NCBI GenBank assembly: GCA_035260745.1
Contig: DATFUQ010000054.1
Span: forward strand, 1 to 40,334
Source of the DNA: Lacunisphaera sp.
GTDB taxonomy: Bacteria > Verrucomicrobiota > Verrucomicrobiia > Opitutales > Opitutaceae
Length of the DNA: 40,334 nt
Direction of reading: 5' to 3'
Of the stretch, positions 5,638 through 30,803 are shown piece by piece. The stretch's first letter is position 1, and every line of letters begins with the position of its first letter. The notes beneath the pieces were generated by a model. The model saw only the letters and a list, made by a program, of their open reading frames with translations, did no database searches and was not told the DNA's origin. A program made the position numbers and the translations under genes.

Positions 5638-6774
5638 TCAGGCGAACACTCCCCCGCCGAGGAGTTTCTCGCCGGCGTAGAGCGCCAGAATCTGGCCGGA
5701 AGCGAGCGCGCGTTGGGGGGATTCGAATTTGATGGAGGCAGTTTTGCCGGCGCCGGGCGTGAACTCACAGAACACGCGGGGGTCGCGGTAGCGGACACGA
5801 CACTCAATGCGCTGTGTCGTCGCAATCGGTTCGCCGATGAAGCTGAGGCTATGCACGCGGCTTTCACTGGTCCACAAACCGGGGGCGTCGGGGCCGTCGA
5901 AGGCGACGAGCAACGCGTGGTCGCTTGCGCGCTTGCCGGTGACGACATACGCCTTGTCGTCGGTGTTCGACGGGATGCGGATGCCGCGGCGCTGGCCGAT
6001 GGTGTAATAGTGCAGCCCGCGGTGTTCGCCGATGATCTTGCCGTCGGTGGCACGGACGATCGGTCCCGGGTGATCCGGCACGTAGGTTTTCAGAAAGTCG
6101 GCCATCTTCACCTCGCCAATAAAGCAGATGCCCTGGCTGTCCTTCTTCTGCGCCGTGGGCAGTTTCGCATCGGCGGCGAGCCCGCGCAGCTCGGGCTTTT
6201 TCAAGTGGCCGATGGGAAAGCGCGCGGCACGGAGTTGTTGCTGCGAAAGCAAAGCGAGAAAGTAGGACTGGTCCTTGTTCTTGTCGGCGCCTTCGAGCAG
6301 GGAATAGATGGAACACGTTGCCTCCAACGCGCTTTCCTCAGTTAGCGCGTTGGGGGCAACGCACTCCACCACGTGTCTGGCGTAGTGTCCGGTGGCGACA
6401 GCCGAAAAACCCTCGGCCTGCGCATACTTGGCAAAGACACCGAATTTCATTTCGCGATTGCACATGACGTCGGGATTGTGCGTGAGACCGCGCTGGTAGC
6501 CGTCGAGCAGATAGTCCACGACCAGCCGGCGGTAGTCCTGCATCAGGTTGACGACCCGGAACTCGATGCCGATCTTCTCCGTCACGGCGCGGGCGTCGTC
6601 GATGTCCTGCCTCCACGGGCAGTGGCCGATGACATTGTCCTCGTTGATCCAGTTCTTCATGTAGGCGCCGACGACGGCGCAGCCCTGCTGCTTGAGCAGG
6701 AGGGCGGCGACAGAGCTGTCGACGCCGCCGGACATGGCGACGAGGATGCGTTCGGGTGGCATGAGGGAAGACAT
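5638..6774 (-). CDS. mnmA: tRNA 2-thiouridine(34) synthase MnmA (with in-frame palindromic insert)
   Basis: [53 protein letters not shown] motifs. Confidence 0.97.
6307..6370. repeat. Family A REP doublet inserted in frame in mnmA
   Basis: 27-bp imperfect inverted arms around a 10-nt loop; matches intergenic copies at 12837-12894 and 15257-15311. Confidence 0.85.
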
Positions 6775-10654: not shown

Positions 10655-10729
10655 TCACCACGAAGGACGCGAAGCTCACGAAGCCGGAACCACCAGTTTC
10701 TCTTCGTGCCCTTCGTGTCTTCGTGGTGA
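10655..10729. repeat. Tandem-inverted repeat, 9-bp period (CACGAAGNN arms)
   Basis: tcaccacgaaggacgcgaagctcacgaag ... cttcgtgcccttcgtgtcttcgtggtga; sibling at 30699-30803. Confidence 0.88.
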
Positions 10730-14278: not shown

Positions 14279-15253
14279 TCAACTCGAACGCTTGGCCATG
14301 TTCTCCACCAGAGTGGTGATGAACGGGGCGCCGTCGGGCAGGCGGGCGAGGGCGGACTTGGCGGCGTCGGACTGCTCGCGGGCGTGGCGGCGTGAGGCGT
14401 CGAGCCCGTGGACTTTCACGTAGGTGGTCTTGCCGGACTTGGCGTCCTTGCCGGCGGTCTTGCCGAGTGTCTTCGTATCGGCGGTGGCGTCGAGGATGTC
14501 GTCCACGATCTGAAACGCCAGGCCGAGGTGCCGGCCGGCTTCGCGCAGGGTGGCGAGCTGCTTTTCATTGGCCCCGCCGCAAAGTCCGCCCGCGACCAAA
14601 GCGGCGGTGAGCATGGCGGCGGTCTTGTTGAGGTGGATGAACTCCAGTTCGCCAGCAGTGGTGTCGGCCTTCTTCTCGGCGAGCAGGTCCTCCATCTGTC
14701 CGCCGATGAGCCGCTCGCTGCCGGCGGCGTCGGCGAGTTCGCGGGTGAGGGCGAGTCCGGCGTCGGCGGGATAGTGGCGGGCGATGAGCTGGAAGGCGAG
14801 GGTGAGCAGCGCGTCGCCGGCGAGCAGCGCCGTGGCCTCGTCGAACTGCTTGTGCGCGGTCGGCCGGCCGCGACGGAGGTCGTCGTTGTCCATGCACGGC
14901 AGGTCGTCGTGGATGAGCGAGTAGGTGTGGAGGCACTCGAGGGCGACCGCCGCAGGCAGGGCGTCTTGAATTTTCGATTTTGGATTTTCGATTTTCGATT
15001 TGGACCCCGAGCCCGTGGACTGGGTGATTTGAGATTTGAGATTCCGAATTTGAGATGCCTTTTCGCCGGCCGGGGCGAAGAGGTCGGCGGCGGCGAGCAC
15101 GAGGACCGGGCGGAGGCGCTTGCCGCCGGCCTGCAGGCTGTAGCGCATGGCGGCGTGGAGGCGGGCGGGCCGGGTGCCGACGGCGGGCACCAATTCGTCG
15201 AGGCCGCGCTCGATCCGCTCACGATAGGCCTGTAACTGGGCGGTAAAATCCAT
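14279..15253 (-). CDS. ispA: Polyprenyl (farnesyl/geranylgeranyl) diphosphate synthase with in-frame heptamer insert
   Basis: GGKRLRP, SLIHDDLPCMDNDDLRRGRPT, ALLAGDALL, AFQIVDDILD, GKTAGKD; start taken at MDFTAQ. Confidence 0.92.
   Translation of the reverse strand: MDFTAQLQAYRERIERGLDELVPAVGTRPARLHAAMRYSLQAGGKRLRPVLVLAAADLFAPAGEKASQIRNLKSQITQSTGSGSKSKIENPKSKIQDALPAAVALECLHTYSLIHDDLPCMDNDDLRRGRPTAHKQFDEATALLAGDALLTLAFQLIARHYPADAGLALTRELADAAGSERLIGGQMEDLLAEKKADTTAGELEFIHLNKTAAMLTAALVAGGLCGGANEKQLATLREAGRHLGLAFQIVDDILDATADTKTLGKTAGKDAKSGKTTYVKVHGLDASRRHAREQSDAAKSALARLPDGAPFITTLVENMAKRSS
14966..15056. repeat. Two heptamer tandem tracts, (GATTTTC)n and (GATTTGA)n, inside ispA
   Basis: ttttcga ttttgga ttttcga ttttcga tttgga ... 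gatttga gatttga gattccg aatttga; translated as SQIRNLKSQITQSTGSGSKSKIENPKSKIQ. Confidence 0.9.
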
Positions 15254-19155: not shown

Positions 19156-19355
19156 GTAGGGGCGCTTGCCCTCAAGCGCCTTGGGCCGTTGGGGGCAACG
19201 GCCCCTACTCCCCTGGAGGGCCCAGCTCCCGCTGGGCCGCAGCCAACCAGGAGGTCGGCTCTCCATACTTTTGGTTCCGGGTGTAGGAACCTGCTTGCAG
19301 GCGATTCAAGGCTCGGGCGACGGCGGAGATAATCGCCTGCAAGCAGGCTCCTACA
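19156..19355. repeat. Array of three different REP doublets: family A 19156-19208, family B 19214-19265, family C 19282-19355
   Basis: GTAGGGGCGCTTGCCCTCAAGCGCC..GCCCCTAC; TGGAGGGCCCAGCTCCCGCTGGGCC..CTCTCCA; TGTAGGAACCTGCTTGCAGGCGAT..ATCGCCTGCAAGCAGGCTCCTACA. Confidence 0.9.
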
Positions 19356-23128: not shown

Positions 23129-23180
23129 TGGAGGGCTCAGCTCCTGCTGAGCCGCGGCCCAGCGGAAGCTGGGCCCTCCA
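23129..23180. repeat. Family B REP doublet between convergent tsaD and uvrA
   Basis: TGGAGGGCTCAGCTCCTGCTGAGCC-GC-GGCCCAGCGGAAGCTGGGCCCTCCA; sibling at 19214-19265. Confidence 0.85.
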
Positions 23181-23181
23181 T

Positions 23182-26100
23182 TTATTTGCTCAGCTTTTCC
23201 CTTAGATACGGTGCGGTCGGGCTGCGCTTCACGTTGAGCAGTCCGGCGAGAGGGCCCTGGTAGAGAATCTCGCCGCCGTTGGGCCCACCGTCCGGTCCGA
23301 GTTCGACCACGTAGTCGGCCTCGGCCAGCAGGTCAAGGTGGTGCTCGATGACGACGACGGTGTGCCCTTGGTCCACGAGATTGTGCAGCACGCGGATGAG
23401 CTTCTCGCAATCGCTCAGGTGCAGCCCGATGGTCGGCTCCTCCAGCAGATAGAGATTGCGCACCGCGATGTTGTGCGAGCGCTCCCGGTAGGTGCGCAGG
23501 CCGCCGGCCAGTTCCGTGACGAGTTTGAGCCGCTGGGCCTCGCCGCCGGAGAGCGACGGGCTGCTTTGCCCCAGCGTCAGGTAACCGAGACCGCAATCGA
23601 CCATGAGTCGGCAGACCTGCGAGAGCTGCGAATGGAAATCGAAAAACACCGCCGCCTCGTCGAACGACAACCGCAGCACCTGGCCGATGGTCTTGCCCTT
23701 CCAGGCGATGTCGGACAGCTCTGCGCTGTAGCGCAAACCGCCGCACGCATCGCAGGGCAGGTAGGAATCGGGCATGAAGGCCATCTCGAATTTGATGCGG
23801 CCGGCCCCGGAGCAGGTCTCGCAGCGACCGCCAACCCTGCCGGACTTGGCGCCGCCCGCGGTGTTGAAGGAGAAGCGGCTGGCGGTGTAGCCGCGCATCC
23901 TGGCCTCGGGCAGCGACGCGAAGAACTGCCGGATGAGATCGAAGATGCCGAGATAGGTGGCGGGCGTGGAGCGCGGGGTCTTGCCGATCGGCGACTGGTC
24001 GACCTCGATGACGGACTTGAAGCCGTTGGCGCCGAGCAGCTCGATGAACGGGAGTGAACTGGAGCGCGGGCGACCTCGCTCGCGGGAATCCATGCGCGGC
24101 GGGGTCGCCGCGCCTCCATCGCTGGAATCAAAGCTGCCGAGCCGGACAAAGTCCTTGCCGGTCAACCTGGCTTTTCTCTGCTTGATGGCGCAGTTGACGG
24201 CGGGGTGGAGGATATCGCGGAAGAGGGTGGACTTGCCGGCGCCGCTGGGGCCGCAGGCCATGATAAGCCGGCCGTGCGGCAGCCGGAGCGTTTGGTCCCG
24301 GAGATTGCGGTAATTGATGCCGCTCAACTCAAGCCAGTCGAGGTGGAGCGCAGCCTCTTTGTGTAGGAGCCTGCTTGCAGGCGATGGGGCGCGCTTATCG
24401 CCTGCAAGCAGGCTCCTACAAGAAACCTCGCGGTATTCGCCGCGTAGCGGATGCAGGATGCCTTTCGCCAAAAAGAGCCCGGTGAGCGATGCGGCGTTCA
24501 GGCGCAGGTTGGCGGGGGTGTCGTTGGCCAGCACGGTGCCGCCGTGGATGCCGGCGCCGGGCCCGAGATCGATGATCCGGTCGGCGCGCGCCATGACGAC
24601 GTCGTCGTGCTCGACCACGAGGACGGTGTTGCCCTTCGCGCGCAGGGTGATGAGCGTGTCGATCAGCCGCTCGTTGTCGCGGGCGTGCAGGCCGATGGAC
24701 GGCTCGTCGAGGACATAGAGCACGCCGGAGAGGTTCGAGCCGAGCTGGGCGGCGAGGCGGATGCGCTGGGCTTCGCCGCCGGAAAGCGTCTCGGTGGGCC
24801 GGTCCATCTGCAGATAGTCGAGGCCGACCTGGCCGAGGAAGCGCAACCGCTCCTCGATCTGCGGGACGATGTCCTGGGTGATGAGCCTCCCGCGGCCGTC
24901 GAGCTGCAGGTTGCGGAGGCTGGCGAGCAGGTCGTCGGGCGTAAGGCGGGTCAGCGCGGGCAGCGAGAGCGGTTCGCCTTTCCGGAGCGGAAGTTTCACG
25001 GCGCGGGCGATGCGGTTGAGCCGCTCGCCGTGGCAGGTGGGGCAGATGGTGGATTTTTGATTTTCGATTTCGGATTTTAGATTGGCTTTCAGGTCGGCCA
25101 GCTCGACCGGGAGCTGTTCGTCGTCGTCCTTTTCCTCAAGCATCCAGTCATAGATGCGGCCGTGGCCGCGGCAGGTCGGACACCAGCCCTTGGGCGAGTT
25201 GAAGGAGAAATGCTTCGGCTCCAGTTCGGGAAAGGATTCGCCGCTCCCGATGTCGGTGCGCGTGGTGGAGAACCAGCTCAGGATTTCGCCGGCGGGAGTT
25301 AGGAGAAAGCAGGAGCCCTTGCCGAGCTTGAGGGCCAGCGCCAGTCCCGCGGCGGTTGTTTCCTTGCTGGGTTTGCCCTTCAGGTCGGCGACGACGGCCT
25401 CGATGTCGTGCTCCTTGTAGCGGTCGAGTTTCTGAAATGCATCGCTGCGCAGCAGCCGGCCGTCGGCGCGCATCAGTTCAAAGCCCTGCTTGCCGATCCA
25501 CCTGGCGATGGGCTCGTGGTGGCCCTTGCGGCCGCGGATAAGCGGGGCGCAGAGATAGAGAGGCTTCGCCTTTCGGGCCCTCGGCGAGGCGAGGACCTGG
25601 GCGAGCAGCGTGCGGAGCTGTCCGGCGGAGAGCGGCATCACCGCCCGGCCCGACTCGGGATGATGCTGCACGCCGAGCCGGGCGTAGAGCAGGCGCAGGT
25701 ATTGCGCGACCTCGGTGATGGTGGCGACGGTGGACTTGCGCGATCCCCGGGTGACACGCTGCTCGATGGCGACGGTGGGCGGGATGCCGCTGAGTCGGTC
25801 GATGTCGGGCCGGGGCAACTGCTCGACGAACTGCCGGGCGTAGGGCGACATTGATTCCATGAAGCGCCGCTGGCCCTCGGCAAAGATGATGTCGAAGGCG
25901 AGGGTGGACTTGCCCGAGCCGGACACGCCGGTGACGACCGAGAGCTGCCGGTGCGGGATGGAGACGGAGATGTTCTTCAGGTTGTTCTCTCTCGCCCCAA
26001 TCAGAGTCATTTCGCCCGGGGCCATGGACAGACCGGTTTGATAAGGTGCCGAATCCTCGGCGGCCGCCAGATTCTGCTTGTCAACTAATAGTATACTTGA

Positions 26101-29049
26101 GCCCAGGGCCTCCTTGAGGAAAGGTGACGTGGCAGTGTCGGCCCGCGCGATGTCCTCCGGCGGACCCTCGGCGATAATCCGGCCGCCCTGTGCGCCGGCG
26201 CCGGGACCGACCTCCAGGATCCAGTCGGCGGATTTGAGCACGTCGAGATTGTGCTCGATGACCACGATGCTGTGTCCGTGATCCACGATGCGCTGGAGCA
26301 CGTCGAGCAGGCGCTTCACGTCGTGGCGGTGCAGGCCGGTGGTGGGCTCGTCCAGCAGGAGCAAGGCTCCGGCTGGAATTGCGGATTGCGGATTGGCGAT
26401 TGCAGATTCGTTACCCGCGTAGTCAGCGAGGTAGCGGACAAGTTTGAGCCTTTGAGACTCACCGCCGGAGAGGGTATTCAGCGGCTGCCCGAGTGGCAGG
26501 TAGCCGAGGCCGACCTCGTCGAGCGCGGCGAGGCGACGGTGGATTTCCGGGTGGTCCGCAAAGATCGCCAGTGAGTCGGCAACGGTCGTGGCGAGCAAGT
26601 CGGCGACCGAGTGGCCGTGCCAGGTAATGGCCAGCGTCTCGGGCTTGAAGCGCCGGCCCTCGCAGATGGGGCAGGGCACAAAGACGTCGGAGAGAAACTG
26701 CATCTCCACCCGCTCGCTGCCGAGGCCCTGGCAGTGGTCGCAACGGCCGTCGCCGCTGTTGAAGGAAAAACTGGAGGGACTGAAACCGGCCGCCTGCGCG
26801 GCGGGCACGGTGGCGTAGAGTTCGCGAATGAGCTCCCAGGCTTCGCAGTAGAGCGCGGGGTTGGAGCGCGGCGTGCGGCTGAGCGGCGACTGGTCAACGA
26901 GCACGACCTCGGAGAATGCAAGGTCGGCTTTGATCGCCTCGATCTCGGCTGGATCCTCGGTCATCAGGCTGCGCTGGGTCAACAGGCCCTGGCAGATGAC
27001 ATTGTTGAGGAGGGTGGACTTGCCGGAACCGGATACGCCGGAGAGGCAAACGAGGCGCTGCAACGGCAGGCGGAACGAAAGGCCGTGGAGGTTGTGCTTG
27101 GTGGCATTGGTGAAGGAGAGCCAGTGTCCGGGTTTGGATCGCCGCTGGGCCGGGGCGTCAACGCGCTGGCGGCCGGAGAAGTAGGCGCCGGTGATGCTGT
27201 GCGGCGAACGCAGCATGCCGGCCACGTCGCCTTGGAAGACGACTTCCCCGCCGCGCGCGCCCGGCTCGGGGCCGATCTCGACCACGTGGTCGGCGGCGCG
27301 GATCATCGCCTCGTCGTGCTCGACCACGACGACGGTGTTGCCGGCGTCGGTCAGCGTGCGGATGATGCCGAGGAGACGGTCGATGTCGCGCGAGTGCAGG
27401 CCGACAGACGGCTCGTCGAGGACGAAGAGCGTGTCGACCAGCGAGGTGCCGAGGCAGGAGGTGAGGTTGACGCGCTGGACCTCGCCGCCGGAGAGGGTGC
27501 GCGAGGAGCGGTCGAGGGTCAGGTAGCCGAGGCCGACCTGTTCGAGGTAGTGCAGGCGGGTGACGATCGAATCGTGGGCGAGGTCGCGTTGGTGGTGCGA
27601 GGAATCGGACCGCAGCGGGGTCGCCGCGGTTCCATCGGACTGGACCAAGGTGAGGAGTTCGCTGATTGGCAGCTGATAGAGTTGGGGCAGGGTGTGGCCC
27701 TGCCATTTCCAGCAGAGCGCTTCGGGCTGGAGCCGGGCCCCGTGGCAGTCCGGGCAGGGGTTGTAGGCCCGGTAGCGCGAGAGGAAGACGCGCACATGCA
27801 TCTTGTAGGTCGTCTTTTCCATCCACCGGAAAAAGCCCTTCAACCCATACCAGTATTTCGGCCACTTCCGGCCGGGCACGAGACCGTAGTCCTTTTCACC
27901 GTCGATGACGAAGGATTTCTGCGCCGGGGTGAGCGCGGCGAAGGGGACATTGGTCGGGATGCCTTTTTTCCGGGTGAAAACGAGCAGGTCCTTCTTGGAT
28001 TCACCGTAGACTTCCCCTTCCCACGGCTTGATGGCGCCGTCGTCGATCGACACGGAGTGGTCGGGGATGGCGAGGCGGTAGTCGATGTCGATGACCCGGC
28101 CGAAACCGCGGCACTTGGGGCAGGCGCCGAGCGGGGAGTTGAAGGAGAAGAGCCCGGGCGTCGCCGGGCGGAAGGTGCGGCCGGTCCTGGGCGAATGCAG
28201 GCCGCGGGAATAATGGCCGGCGGAAGAGTATTGCGGATTGCCGGTTGCGGATTGCGGAGTGGCGAACAGGAAGGCCTCTCCCTTGCCAAAGTGCAGGGCG
28301 GTTTCAGTGGCTTCCAGAAAGCGTGACTTGTTTTCCGCGGTGATGGCCAACCGGTCCTGGATGACGTAAAGGAACGTCCAACGCTCAACGTCCAACTTCG
28401 AACCAGCCAATGCGGCCAGCACGTCGTCTATCTTGTGGAGCTCAAGCGTCTCGTTGGTGGAGGTTGAGCGTTGCTTGTTGGATGCTGGACGTTGCGCAAG
28501 AATTCGCGTGTAGCCTTGCCCCTTGATGCTGGTGAGCACCTCCGCCCACTTGAGGTTGGCGGGCTTGGCGATGCGGAAGCAGAGCAAAAGCGTGGCGGCG
28601 CTGTGCGCGGTGTGGGCCTTGGCCCAGATGGTCTGCGGGTTGTCGTCCTCGACCTTTTCACCGGTGGCGGGGTCGAAGCACTCCGCGACATGGCTGAACC
28701 AGACCTTCGCGAAGTCGGTCAACTCGGTCATCGTGCCCACGGTGGAGCGGGAAGTCTTGACCGTGTTGGTCTGTTCGATGGCGATGGACGGGCGGATGTT
28801 CTCGACGGTGTCGACCTTGGGCTTGTCGAGGAGTTCGAGGAACTGGCGGGTGTAGGCGCTGAAGGTCTCGACGTAGCGGCGCTGGCCCTCGGCGTGGAGC
28901 GTGTCGAACACCAGCGAGGACTTGCCGGCGCCGCTCAGGCCGGTGACGACGATGAATTTGCCCAGCGGGAGATCGAGGTCGAAGCCCTTGAGGTTGTTCT
29001 GGCGGACGCCGCGCAGGCGGATGGACTCGGGGGCGGGGGAGGTCGGCAC
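23182..29049 (-). CDS. uvrA: Excinuclease ABC subunit A, tandem-fused double UvrA (~1950 aa) with multiple in-frame repeat inserts
   Basis: Four Walker A ([16 protein letters not shown] x2, GPSGAGKS), four LSGGE signatures, CxxC zinc fingers, EGQRRY/FxE twice; GTG start assumed. Confidence 0.96.
24060..24120. repeat. Family D REP doublet in frame in uvrA
   Basis: TGGAGCGCGGGCGACCTCGCTCGCG...GCGCGGCGGGGTCGCCGCGCCTCCATC; left unit nearly identical to 596-620. Confidence 0.82.
24362..24420. repeat. Family C REP doublet (perfect 24-bp inverted repeat, 11-nt loop) in frame in uvrA
   Basis: TGTAGGAGCCTGCTTGCAGGCGAT-GGGGCGCGCTT-ATCGCCTGCAAGCAGGCTCCTACA; right arm identical to that of 19282-19355. 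Confidence 0.95.
25052..25086. repeat. Heptamer tract (GATTTTC-like x5) in uvrA
   Basis: gattttt gattttc gatttcg gatttta gattggc; peptide [12 protein letters not shown]. Confidence 0.85.
26376..26410. repeat. Heptamer tract (GGATTGC-like x5) in uvrA
   Basis: gaattgc ggattgc ggattgg cgattgc agattcg; peptide [12 protein letters not shown]. Confidence 0.85.
27608..27636. repeat. Single family D-related REP unit in uvrA
   Basis: Minus strand GATGGAACCGCGGCGACCCCGCTGCGGTC versus GATGGAGGCGCGGCGACCCCGCCGCGC at 24094-24120; peptides DGTAATPLR and DGGAATPPR. Confidence 0.75.
28228..28262. repeat. Heptamer tract (GGATTGC-like x5) in uvrA
   Basis: gtattgc ggattgc cggttgc ggattgc ggagtgg; peptide [11 protein letters not shown]. 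Confidence 0.82.
28372..28495. repeat. Inverted pair of heptamer tracts (CAACGTC / GACGTTG) in uvrA
   Basis: 28372-28404 gaacgtc caacgct caacgtc caacttc; 28461-28495 aggttga gcgttgc ttgttgg atgctgg acgttgc. Confidence 0.8.
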
Positions 29050-30698: not shown

Positions 30699-30803
30699 AT
30701 TGAACCACGAAGTTCACGAAGGACACGAAGTGGGGAGGCGGGGAGCGAGGGATGCACTAATCTCATGACCTTGGAATTGGGCTTCGTGCCCTTCGTGGTT
30801 AAT
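30699..30803. repeat. Tandem-inverted repeat, 9-bp period (CACGAAGNN arms)
   Basis: aaccacgaagttcacgaaggacacgaag ... cttcgtgcccttcgtggtt; same family as 10655-10729 with an unrelated spacer. Confidence 0.88.

What the first reader, a model, noticed from the sequence alone, without database searches (positions are those of the whole stretch)
23182..29049. uvrA as a sink for about eight in-frame insertions from several unrelated repeat families
Seen: one intact ORF carries two REP doublets (24060-24120, 24362-24420), a single REP unit (27608-27636), three heptamer tracts (25052, 26376, 28228) and an inverted heptamer pair (28372-28495). Most have a sibling elsewhere in the window, either intergenic or inside mnmA/ispA. 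All avoid the Walker A/B, signature and Cys motifs. Known: in-frame palindromic insertions exist in Rickettsia (RPEs). Inference: here two structurally different repeat classes (REP hairpins and short-period tandem repeats) both colonise loops of core enzymes, acting as a genome-wide peptide-insertion system. This is the best candidate for an undescribed system in this window.
Basis: partly seen in the sequence, partly recalled or inferred. Interest (0 to 1): 0.88.

Follow-up and report, generated by a model that had tools for sequence, protein, structure and literature searches.

The report
Repeat-filled loops of a repair gene
A double-length DNA-repair gene (uvrA) of a soil bacterium carries ten pieces of otherwise mostly intergenic repeat DNA in frame; they are likely selfish repeats tolerated in a few flexible loops, an already reported phenomenon, here extended to 7-base tandem arrays and a 24-base insert not found in print.

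Summary
The repeats are real, in frame and no assembly error. They are not one peptide-insertion system. In-frame REP palindromes in both uvrA genes of Opitutus terrae, the same family as this genome's relatives, were published in 2013 (PMC3733652). Against 29 orthologous loci, eight sites add length. The single REP (27610) and the 25052 tract do not; the latter replaced a conserved loop segment residue for residue. Relatives fill the same loops with other repeat families, even sister taxa. Heptamer arrays are about 11-fold rarer in ORFs than between genes, which points to tolerated selfish DNA. Beyond the literature I could search: (1) the heptamer tracts match inverted arms, typically five units, around four-helix-bundle (PF05635) genes; (2) a lineage-restricted 24-nt insert adds exactly 8 residues (5 of 5 testable) and sits in ORFs 10 of 10 times; (3) heptamer-bearing genes are skewed to DNA repair and replication (6 of 19 against 1 of 70). 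This scan already reported point 1, and heptamers inside uvrA, on other genomes. Translation and function are untested.

The parts
23182..29049 (-). Double (fused) UvrA, 1955 aa, intact; four Walker A, four LSGGE and four Walker B motifs
   Evidence: 77-83% identity to full-length genus orthologues
28470..28495 (-). Site 1: first arm of an inverted heptamer pair, UvrB-binding domain of half 1 (ends approximate)
   Evidence: region 45 aa against 33 aa in L005, L006, L009; related arms in L002, L004, L008; position against 2R6F
28373..28403 (-). Site 2: second arm of the pair; ordinary uvrA sequence lies between the arms
28230..28261 (-). Site 3: ATTGCGG-family heptamer array, net +7 aa
   Evidence: 19 aa against 12 aa in 10 genus orthologues; L004 and L012 also +7 aa with other units; same unit flanks the PF05635 gene on C254; 9 copies
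27610..27635 (-). Site 4: single TGGA-tagged REP-like hairpin; no length gain within the genus
   Evidence: 5 copies
26378..26408 (-). Site 5: ATTGCGG-family array between the signature helix and Walker B of half 1; a hotspot loop
   Evidence: 21 aa against 13-14 in the shortest genus alleles; heptamers of other families or GTAG REP doublets in relatives
26080..26098 (-).
   Evidence: 36 copies, 33 intergenic, 2 at gene edges, only this one inside an ORF; 37 aa against 32 aa in L002, L008, L017
25045..25083 (-). Site 7: ATTTTCG-family array that replaced a conserved loop segment with no net length change; abuts CPTC
   Evidence: 31 aa against 30-31 in 19 of 19 genus orthologues; pLDDT <50 at model residues 312-317
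24362..24420 (-). Site 8: GTAG-tagged REP doublet in the linker between the two ATPase domains of half 2
   Evidence: 48 arms in the genome, 42 intergenic; pLDDT <50 at 532-556
24059..24119 (-). Site 9: TGGAG-tagged REP heterodimer; same family in L005, L007, L017, a heptamer array in L002 (sister of L017)
   Evidence: pLDDT <50 at 631-650
23829..23852 (-).
   Evidence: 11 aa against 3 aa in 24 of 24 orthologues; family of 10 copies, 10 in ORFs; hairpin weak (z -1.6)
6305..6371 (-). GTGG-tagged REP doublet in frame in mnmA (ends approximate); its family flanks a RAYT-like gene on C120
   Evidence: this loop has 27 aa or more in 36 of 80 named orthologues, mode 17
14970..15056 (-). Two heptamer arrays in frame in ispA, net +33 aa
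   Evidence: (65 aa against 32 aa in 8 of 19 orthologues)

Best explanation
Ten places in this intact double uvrA carry DNA of several repeat families, most of which are mainly intergenic elsewhere in the genome; they are likely selfish, non-autonomous elements that land widely and survive in genes only where the frame is kept and a loop tolerates them. Shown: identity with genome-wide families, depletion in ORFs, reuse of the same loops by different families in relatives. Inferred: the REP hairpins are likely placed by RAYT transposases; the heptamer arrays are likely gene-less arms of the four-helix-bundle cassette, whose five 4-nt cores would match a five-subunit ring; the 24-mer likely inserts precisely at GGCG-like sites by an unknown enzyme. 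The loops behave as slots in which one element is likely replaced by another, or shrinks in 21-nt steps, rather than piling up. The peptides are predicted to be near-neutral passengers.
For: Depletion: 30 of 84 heptamer arrays lie in ORFs although 85.6% of the DNA is coding, about 11-fold; 16 of 93 in 2.4 Mb of G009. REP units: 14 of 106 in ORFs; site 8 family 2 of 48, site 6 family 1 of 36. Turnover: L017 and L002 are sisters yet hold a REP doublet and a heptamer array at site 9; site 5 holds at least seven kinds of fill among 21 genus orthologues, read by eye; L028 looks like L004's site 3 array shortened by three units. Partners: 4 of 4 PF05635 genes and 8 of 8 PF13366 genes in G000 have inverted tandem arms, read by eye; 14 of 30 phylum-wide PF05635 loci have period-7 arrays on both flanks, against 0 of 26 and 2 of 28 far flanks; RAYT-like genes on C120 and C39 and two in G009 are flanked by REP families. 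All 14 genus genomes with a REP doublet in the mnmA loop have 2 or more RAYT matches; 4 of the 6 with a short loop have none (three of these four are one clade). Array length: median 32 nt, five cores in 51 of 84; closest solved relative 2GSC has five chains. Low pLDDT at sites 7-9. Host conserved at 79% against G009, genome median 76%.
Against: Insertions are more clustered than gene length predicts: 25 arrays in 19 genes (0 of 20000 simulations), uvrA 3 against 0.08 expected, and hosts lean to DNA repair, so tolerance alone may not be the whole story. No RAYT flanked by uvrA's own REP families was found in G000 (79% complete); its four RAYT-model matches are below the NCBIfam cut-off and one has a stop. 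G009 has 93 arrays in 2.4 Mb but one PF05635 gene. 16 of 30 PF05635 loci lacked two period-7 arms at my threshold, several having period 8; five cores are less dominant in G009 (37 of 93, four cores in 31). The 24-mer is not depleted in ORFs. Low pLDDT partly reflects missing alignment rows. Site 10 lies where 24 of 24 orthologues have no indel. Substitution patterns inside shared inserts were not measured.
Confidence: 0.68

Rival explanations
1. Insertion or retention is biased towards DNA-repair and replication genes, for example because elements move through single-stranded DNA exposed when damage-induced genes are transcribed, or because mRNA hairpins tune these genes.
For: 6 of 19 heptamer host genes (UvrA, DinG-like, MutL, DnaE, AlkZ-like, SMC; 11 of 25 arrays) against 1 of 70 length-weighted random G009 genes, Fisher p 0.0003; 5 of 18 without uvrA, p 0.001; G009 hosts 2 of 11, p 0.047. 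Di Nocera 2013 saw the same skew for REPs, a different class. Intergenic arrays prefer co-oriented gaps (45 of 50 against 912 of 1401) and have a position-dependent strand.
Against: The category was chosen after seeing the hosts, the background comes from another genome, and many background proteins had no Pfam hit at the cut-off used. Large multi-domain ATPases simply have many loops. A second, single uvrA (C31) may relax selection on this one and showed no element in my censuses. 4 of 11 G009 host genes are orthologues of G000 hosts, so they are not independent.
Confidence: 0.18
2. One dedicated, adaptive system inserts peptides into loops of core enzymes.
For: Essential genes carry inserts with frames intact. 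The C-rich strand is sense in 32 of 37 internal arrays against 61-65% for random coding windows, giving S/P/Q-rich peptides. The 24-mer is in ORFs 10 of 10 times.
Against: About 11-fold depletion in ORFs; different partner genes per class; no shared peptide; fills are swapped between sister taxa and many relatives have short loops. Intergenic arrays already show about 70% of the same strand bias. 10 of 10 is expected about one time in five from coding density.
Confidence: 0.05
3. The heptamer tracts arise on the spot by polymerase slippage and have no mobile origin.
For: Slippage of 7-mers has been proposed (Mrazek 2007 as summarised in PMC4679880); 21-nt contraction is suggested at site 3; no reverse transcriptase in 5 of 5 genomes and no nuclease known for PF05635 (recalled).
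Against: The same few units recur at many unrelated loci and as inverted arms around one gene family; copy number is fixed near five; short alleles lack the unit; site 7 replaced unrelated sequence.
Confidence: 0.08
4. The inserts are assembly artefacts.
For: The genome is a fragmented metagenome assembly (342 contigs).
Against: Separately assembled contigs match with 0 differences over all ten sites, and two other samples carry sites 8 and 10; relatives carry homologous inserts.
Confidence: 0.01

Closest known systems
Intragenic GTAG REPs of Opitutus terrae and others (Di Nocera, De Gregorio, Rocco 2013, PMC3733652; read: section 15, passages, part 1 of 3 of supplement 3)
   Same: Same bacterial family as the nearest named relatives (Opitutaceae), same gene (Oter_2709, 1995 aa, a single REP and a dimer in frame), singles and dimers of 7-30 aa, skew to repair genes, RAYT link.
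   Different: Covers only GTAG/CGTC palindromes. In the parts I read: no heptamer arrays, no 24-mer, no comparison of fills among relatives, two sites per uvrA rather than ten.
Rickettsia palindromic elements (Ogata 2000; seen only as cited in PMC3733652 and PMC3184786)
   Same: Palindromic DNA in frame in conserved genes.
   Different: RPE-1 is longer (about 150 nt, recalled); here 19-60 nt and several unrelated classes; no sequence comparison made.
Heptamer tandem repeats of Xanthomonas, Nostoc and Beggiatoaceae (Rehm 2015 PMC4692102, passages; MacGregor 2015 PMC4679880, abstract, introduction and passages)
   Same: 7-nt units, a preferred short copy number (four in Rehm), mostly intergenic between co-oriented genes, under-represented in ORFs.
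   Different: One unit per study; in-ORF copies mostly at protein ends (MacGregor); no link to four-helix-bundle genes in the passages seen.
23S rRNA intervening-sequence protein / Avd family (PF05635; Xcc0516, 2GSC; PMC10053308 and bioRxiv 2023.10.23.563531, passages)
   Same: Four genes in G000, each between inverted heptamer arms; one arm pair has the unit of uvrA sites 3 and 5; solved relatives are pentamers and Avd binds RNA with all five protomers.
   Different: Here in protein operons, not rRNA; no reverse transcriptase found; binding to the arrays untested.
Small dispersed repeats (SDR) of Nostoc (Elhai 2008; paper not held, recalled; one passage on SDR5 inserting precisely into HIP1 seen in PMC4390886)
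   Same: Very short element inserted precisely at a short GC-rich target; in-frame length.
   Different: Different phylum and target; sequence relation not tested.

Membership tests
UvrA | Passes curated HMM cut-off with intact ABC motifs | tested here: met
   NF001503 1755.7 against 1147; TIGR00630 1729 against 730; motifs
GTAG-superfamily REP | Terminal GTAG (or degenerate) tag next to a stem-loop | tested here: met
   Site 8: GTAG tag and perfect stem; mnmA doublet has GTGG, a variant named
GTAG-superfamily REP | Tag at sites 4 and 9 | tested here: inconclusive
   TGGA(G) tag with A or C where GTGG has G; hairpins fold
GTAG-superfamily REP | Multi-copy, mostly intergenic, singles and dimers | tested here: met
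   (42 of 48; 10 of 11 intergenic); site 4 and site 9 arm B less so (2 of 5; 3 of 7)
GTAG-superfamily REP | Same repeat flanks a RAYT gene | tested here: inconclusive
   Met for the mnmA family (C120) and for G009 families; no cognate RAYT seen for uvrA's families in a 79% complete genome
GTAG-superfamily REP | Mobilised by RAYT | not testable with these tools
   needs biochemistry
Four-helix-bundle (PF05635) cassette arm | Same heptamer forms inverted arms around a PF05635 gene | tested here: met
   Sites 3 and 5 match C254 arms; site 7 and ispA arrays resemble C175 arms; not shown for sites 1-2
Four-helix-bundle (PF05635) cassette arm | About five units | tested here: met
   median 32 nt, five cores in 51 of 84
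Four-helix-bundle (PF05635) cassette arm | Bound or moved by the protein | not testable with these tools
   no binding assay; a five-copy complex with nucleic acid could not be modelled
Diversity-generating retroelement (Avd plus RT) | Reverse transcriptase in the genome | tested here: not met
   PF00078 found in 0 of 5 genomes, four of them 96-100% complete
Rickettsia RPE | Long (about 100-150 nt, recalled) palindrome of an RPE family | tested here: not met
   elements are 19-60 nt
Rickettsia RPE | Retained in the expressed protein | not testable with these tools
   no RNA run listed; no proteomics
SDR-like small insert (24-mer) | Fixed length, precise in-frame insertion at a short target | tested here: met
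   net +8 aa in 5 of 5 testable cases; left flank ends GGCG in 6 of 10, right flank starts G in 9 of 10
SDR-like small insert (24-mer) | Sequence relation to Nostoc SDR families | not tested
   Elhai 2008 not held

The most novel reading that the evidence does not exclude
Pentameric four-helix-bundle proteins recognise five-unit heptamer arrays and help write them into transcribed DNA, sometimes overwriting host sequence at equal length. Together with RAYT-driven REPs and a 24-nt element, they preferentially hit DNA-repair and replication genes, so that fixed loops of UvrA, MutL, DinG and DnaE act as fast-turnover slots. This would tie the unexplained bacterial 7-mer repeats, an orphan protein family and the repair-gene bias noted in 2013 into one testable process.
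Probability: 0.15. Interest if true: 0.8.

Novelty: new variant of a known kind. Interest (0 to 1): 0.42.

Why it matters
The headline (REPs in frame in Opitutaceae uvrA) is published. What this gene adds is a natural test bed: ten sites, several element classes, short and filled alleles in close relatives, and one equal-length overwrite next to a zinc ligand. That lets one measure how much foreign peptide a core repair ATPase tolerates and ask why repair genes collect unrelated repeats. It also offers a concrete assay for the orphan PF05635 family (binding to a five-unit array) and a small new element whose mover is unknown.

Tried and rejected
Single-sequence AlphaFold of half 1 gave pLDDT 33 and was discarded; sites 1-6 were placed only by alignment to 2R6F. 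The first orthologue alignment picked antisense frames for two loci and was redone. A loose pattern for the 24-mer gave 82 hits against 43-60 in shuffles and was dropped for a tighter one (10 against 0-2). A loose REP pattern (11 in-ORF hits) likely includes chance matches; one search counts are used instead. A hydrophobicity test of insert orientation was not significant (17 of 25; 4 of 12). The p-value for strand bias used a wrong baseline; one search replaces it. An Avd-plus-RT retrohoming model was rejected for lack of an RT. No RNA holder was listed; this says nothing on expression. In the G000-G009 pair comparison (671 orthologues, 82 indels of 5 aa or more) my classifier called only 18 of the longer sides repeat-derived, so most loop length variation was not assigned to repeats. 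Only 2.4 of 4.2 Mb of G009 was examined. Literature searches that found no description of heptamer arms around four-helix-bundle or GxxExxY genes or of heptamer inserts in core enzymes; subscription journals and Elhai 2008 were not readable, and parts 2-3 of Di Nocera's supplement 3 were not read. The codon-position test on shared inserts was not completed, so neutrality of the peptides remains inferred.

Full report
Observation. The frame 23182-29049 (-) is open for 1955 codons and scores far above the UvrA cut-offs with four ABC stretches, so it is a fused double UvrA. The nearest named relatives of the window's mnmA are Opitutaceae. Period-7 arrays are in real excess: 132 against 20-22 for control periods. 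Contigs from two runs that may be the source match all sites with no differing letter, and two other samples carry sites 8 and 10.

Site by site. I aligned 29 orthologous loci from the genus and order. Eight sites add length: the inverted pair (+12 aa together), 28230 (+7), 26378 (+7 to 8 over the shortest genus alleles), the linker repeat at 26080 (+5), the REP doublets at 24362 and 24059 (32 aa against 6-15 in the shortest alleles; 34 against 15) and a 24-nt insert at 23829 (+8; absent in 24 of 24). Two do not. The single REP at 27610 sits in a loop of the same length across the genus. The array at 25052 has replaced a segment that is 30-31 aa and alignable in 19 of 19 genus orthologues, directly before CPTC. 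No Walker, signature or Cys motif is interrupted. An alignment-based model of half 2 (mean pLDDT 80) is unconfident exactly at sites 7, 8 and 9, partly because the inserts lack alignment rows. The mnmA and ispA inserts are confirmed too; the mnmA loop is expanded in 36 of 80 named orthologues, none with a stop.

The loops are slots. Relatives hold different families at the same places. L017 and L002 are sisters in the UvrA tree, yet one has a REP doublet and the other a heptamer array at site 9. Site 5 holds several heptamer families, inverted pairs or GTAG doublets. At site 3 three different units each give +7 aa, and L028 looks like an array that lost three units (21 nt). Between G000 and G009 several orthologous loops hold different arrays at equal length. 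The peptide is therefore not conserved; the tolerance of the loop is.

Genome-wide. With my own gene calls (2311 genes, 85.6% coding), 30 of 84 heptamer arrays lie in ORFs, about 11-fold fewer per base than between genes; in 2.4 Mb of G009 it is 16 of 93 (three very GC-rich arrays dropped in each). REP families are also mostly intergenic. This is the pattern expected from selection against most coding hits. The survivors are clustered: 25 internal arrays in 19 genes, among them UvrA, a DinG-like helicase (3), MutL (2), IspG (2), DnaE, SMC, an AlkZ-like glycosylase, NadE, MetH and two RsmB-like enzymes. Six of 19 are repair, replication or chromosome genes against 1 of 70 random G009 genes. That category was chosen after the fact and the background is from a relative, so it is a lead.

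Where the elements come from. RAYT-like genes in G000 and G009 are flanked by REP families, including the one in mnmA, and 19 of 25 genus genomes have a RAYT over the cut-off; no cognate RAYT for uvrA's own REPs was seen. All four PF05635 genes of G000 lie between inverted heptamer arms, and the C254 arms have the unit of sites 3 and 5. Phylum-wide 14 of 30 loci show two period-7 arms, others period 8 or none at my threshold. Arrays have a median of 32 nt and most often five 4-nt cores; the solved relative Xcc0516 is a pentamer and Avd contacts RNA with all five protomers. One core per subunit is my inference. No reverse transcriptase was found in five genomes, so a DGR-like route is unlikely, and how arrays move is unexplained. 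The 24-mer has 10 copies, all in ORFs, against 0-2 in codon shuffles, and adds exactly 8 aa in 5 of 5 testable cases. A stricter pattern matched in 4 of 25 genus genomes; in G021 and G016 it appears inside GTAG REP-like hairpins.

Comparison with what is known. Di Nocera and colleagues (PMC3733652) reported that O. terrae has the most intragenic GTAG REPs, that both of its uvrA genes carry two inserts, and that repair genes are frequent hosts. Heptamer repeats with a preferred short copy number are described in Xanthomonas, Nostoc and Beggiatoaceae. My searches found no paper linking them to four-helix-bundle genes or placing them in core enzymes. This scan has reported the cassette in at least 176 genomes and heptamers inside uvrA several times; those notes are not independent evidence. 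The 24-mer had no look-alike there.

Verdict. Real, and richer than first read, but best explained as several selfish repeat families surviving in tolerant loops, not as one peptide-insertion system. The REP part is known; the heptamer origin, the equal-length overwrite, the 24-mer and the repair-gene skew make it a new variant of a known kind. Translation, neutrality and mobility are untested.

Noticed in passing
G000 C83, C108, C281, C214, C58, C192, C102, C119; window 10659-10725 and 30706-30731: All 8 GxxExxY (PF13366, PD-(D/E)XK) genes lie between inverted arms of about three 9-nt units, read by eye; gene-less 9-mer pairs are common, one in the window. A parallel cassette to the heptamer one, here with a predicted nuclease.
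   Followed up: partly
G000 C39:2039-2407: A RAYT-like domain lies in the same 813-aa open frame as what reads as the end of a mutS-like gene, with a REP pair downstream; G001:C9 also has a RAYT match in an 813-aa frame.
   Followed up: no
window 23182-29049: Both halves lack the cysteines of the first zinc module of 2R6F, and half 2 lacks the insertion domain, replaced by a 30-aa acidic linker.
   Followed up: no
G000 C31:3191-5374: A second, single uvrA of ordinary length (955-aa open frame) with no element in my censuses; most relatives have both types.
   Followed up: partly
window 23129-23180 and 19214-19265: A TGGAGGGC-type REP doublet directly after the uvrA stop; the same family flanks the RAYT-like sequence on C39.
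   Followed up: partly
L257, L259, L261 (G016, G021): The 24-mer sits nested inside GTAG-tagged hairpins, an element within an element.
   Followed up: partly
window 26080-26098: The AT-rich family (36 copies in G000) has no copy in 2.4 Mb of G009; relatives L003 and L025 hold a different AT-rich palindrome at the same linker. No partner gene looked for.
   Followed up: no
PMC3733652 supplement 3, row Oter_3011: The listed REP peptide ends in a P/S/Q/N-rich stretch like the heptamer-encoded peptides here, so heptamer inserts may be present but unremarked in O. terrae.
   Followed up: no
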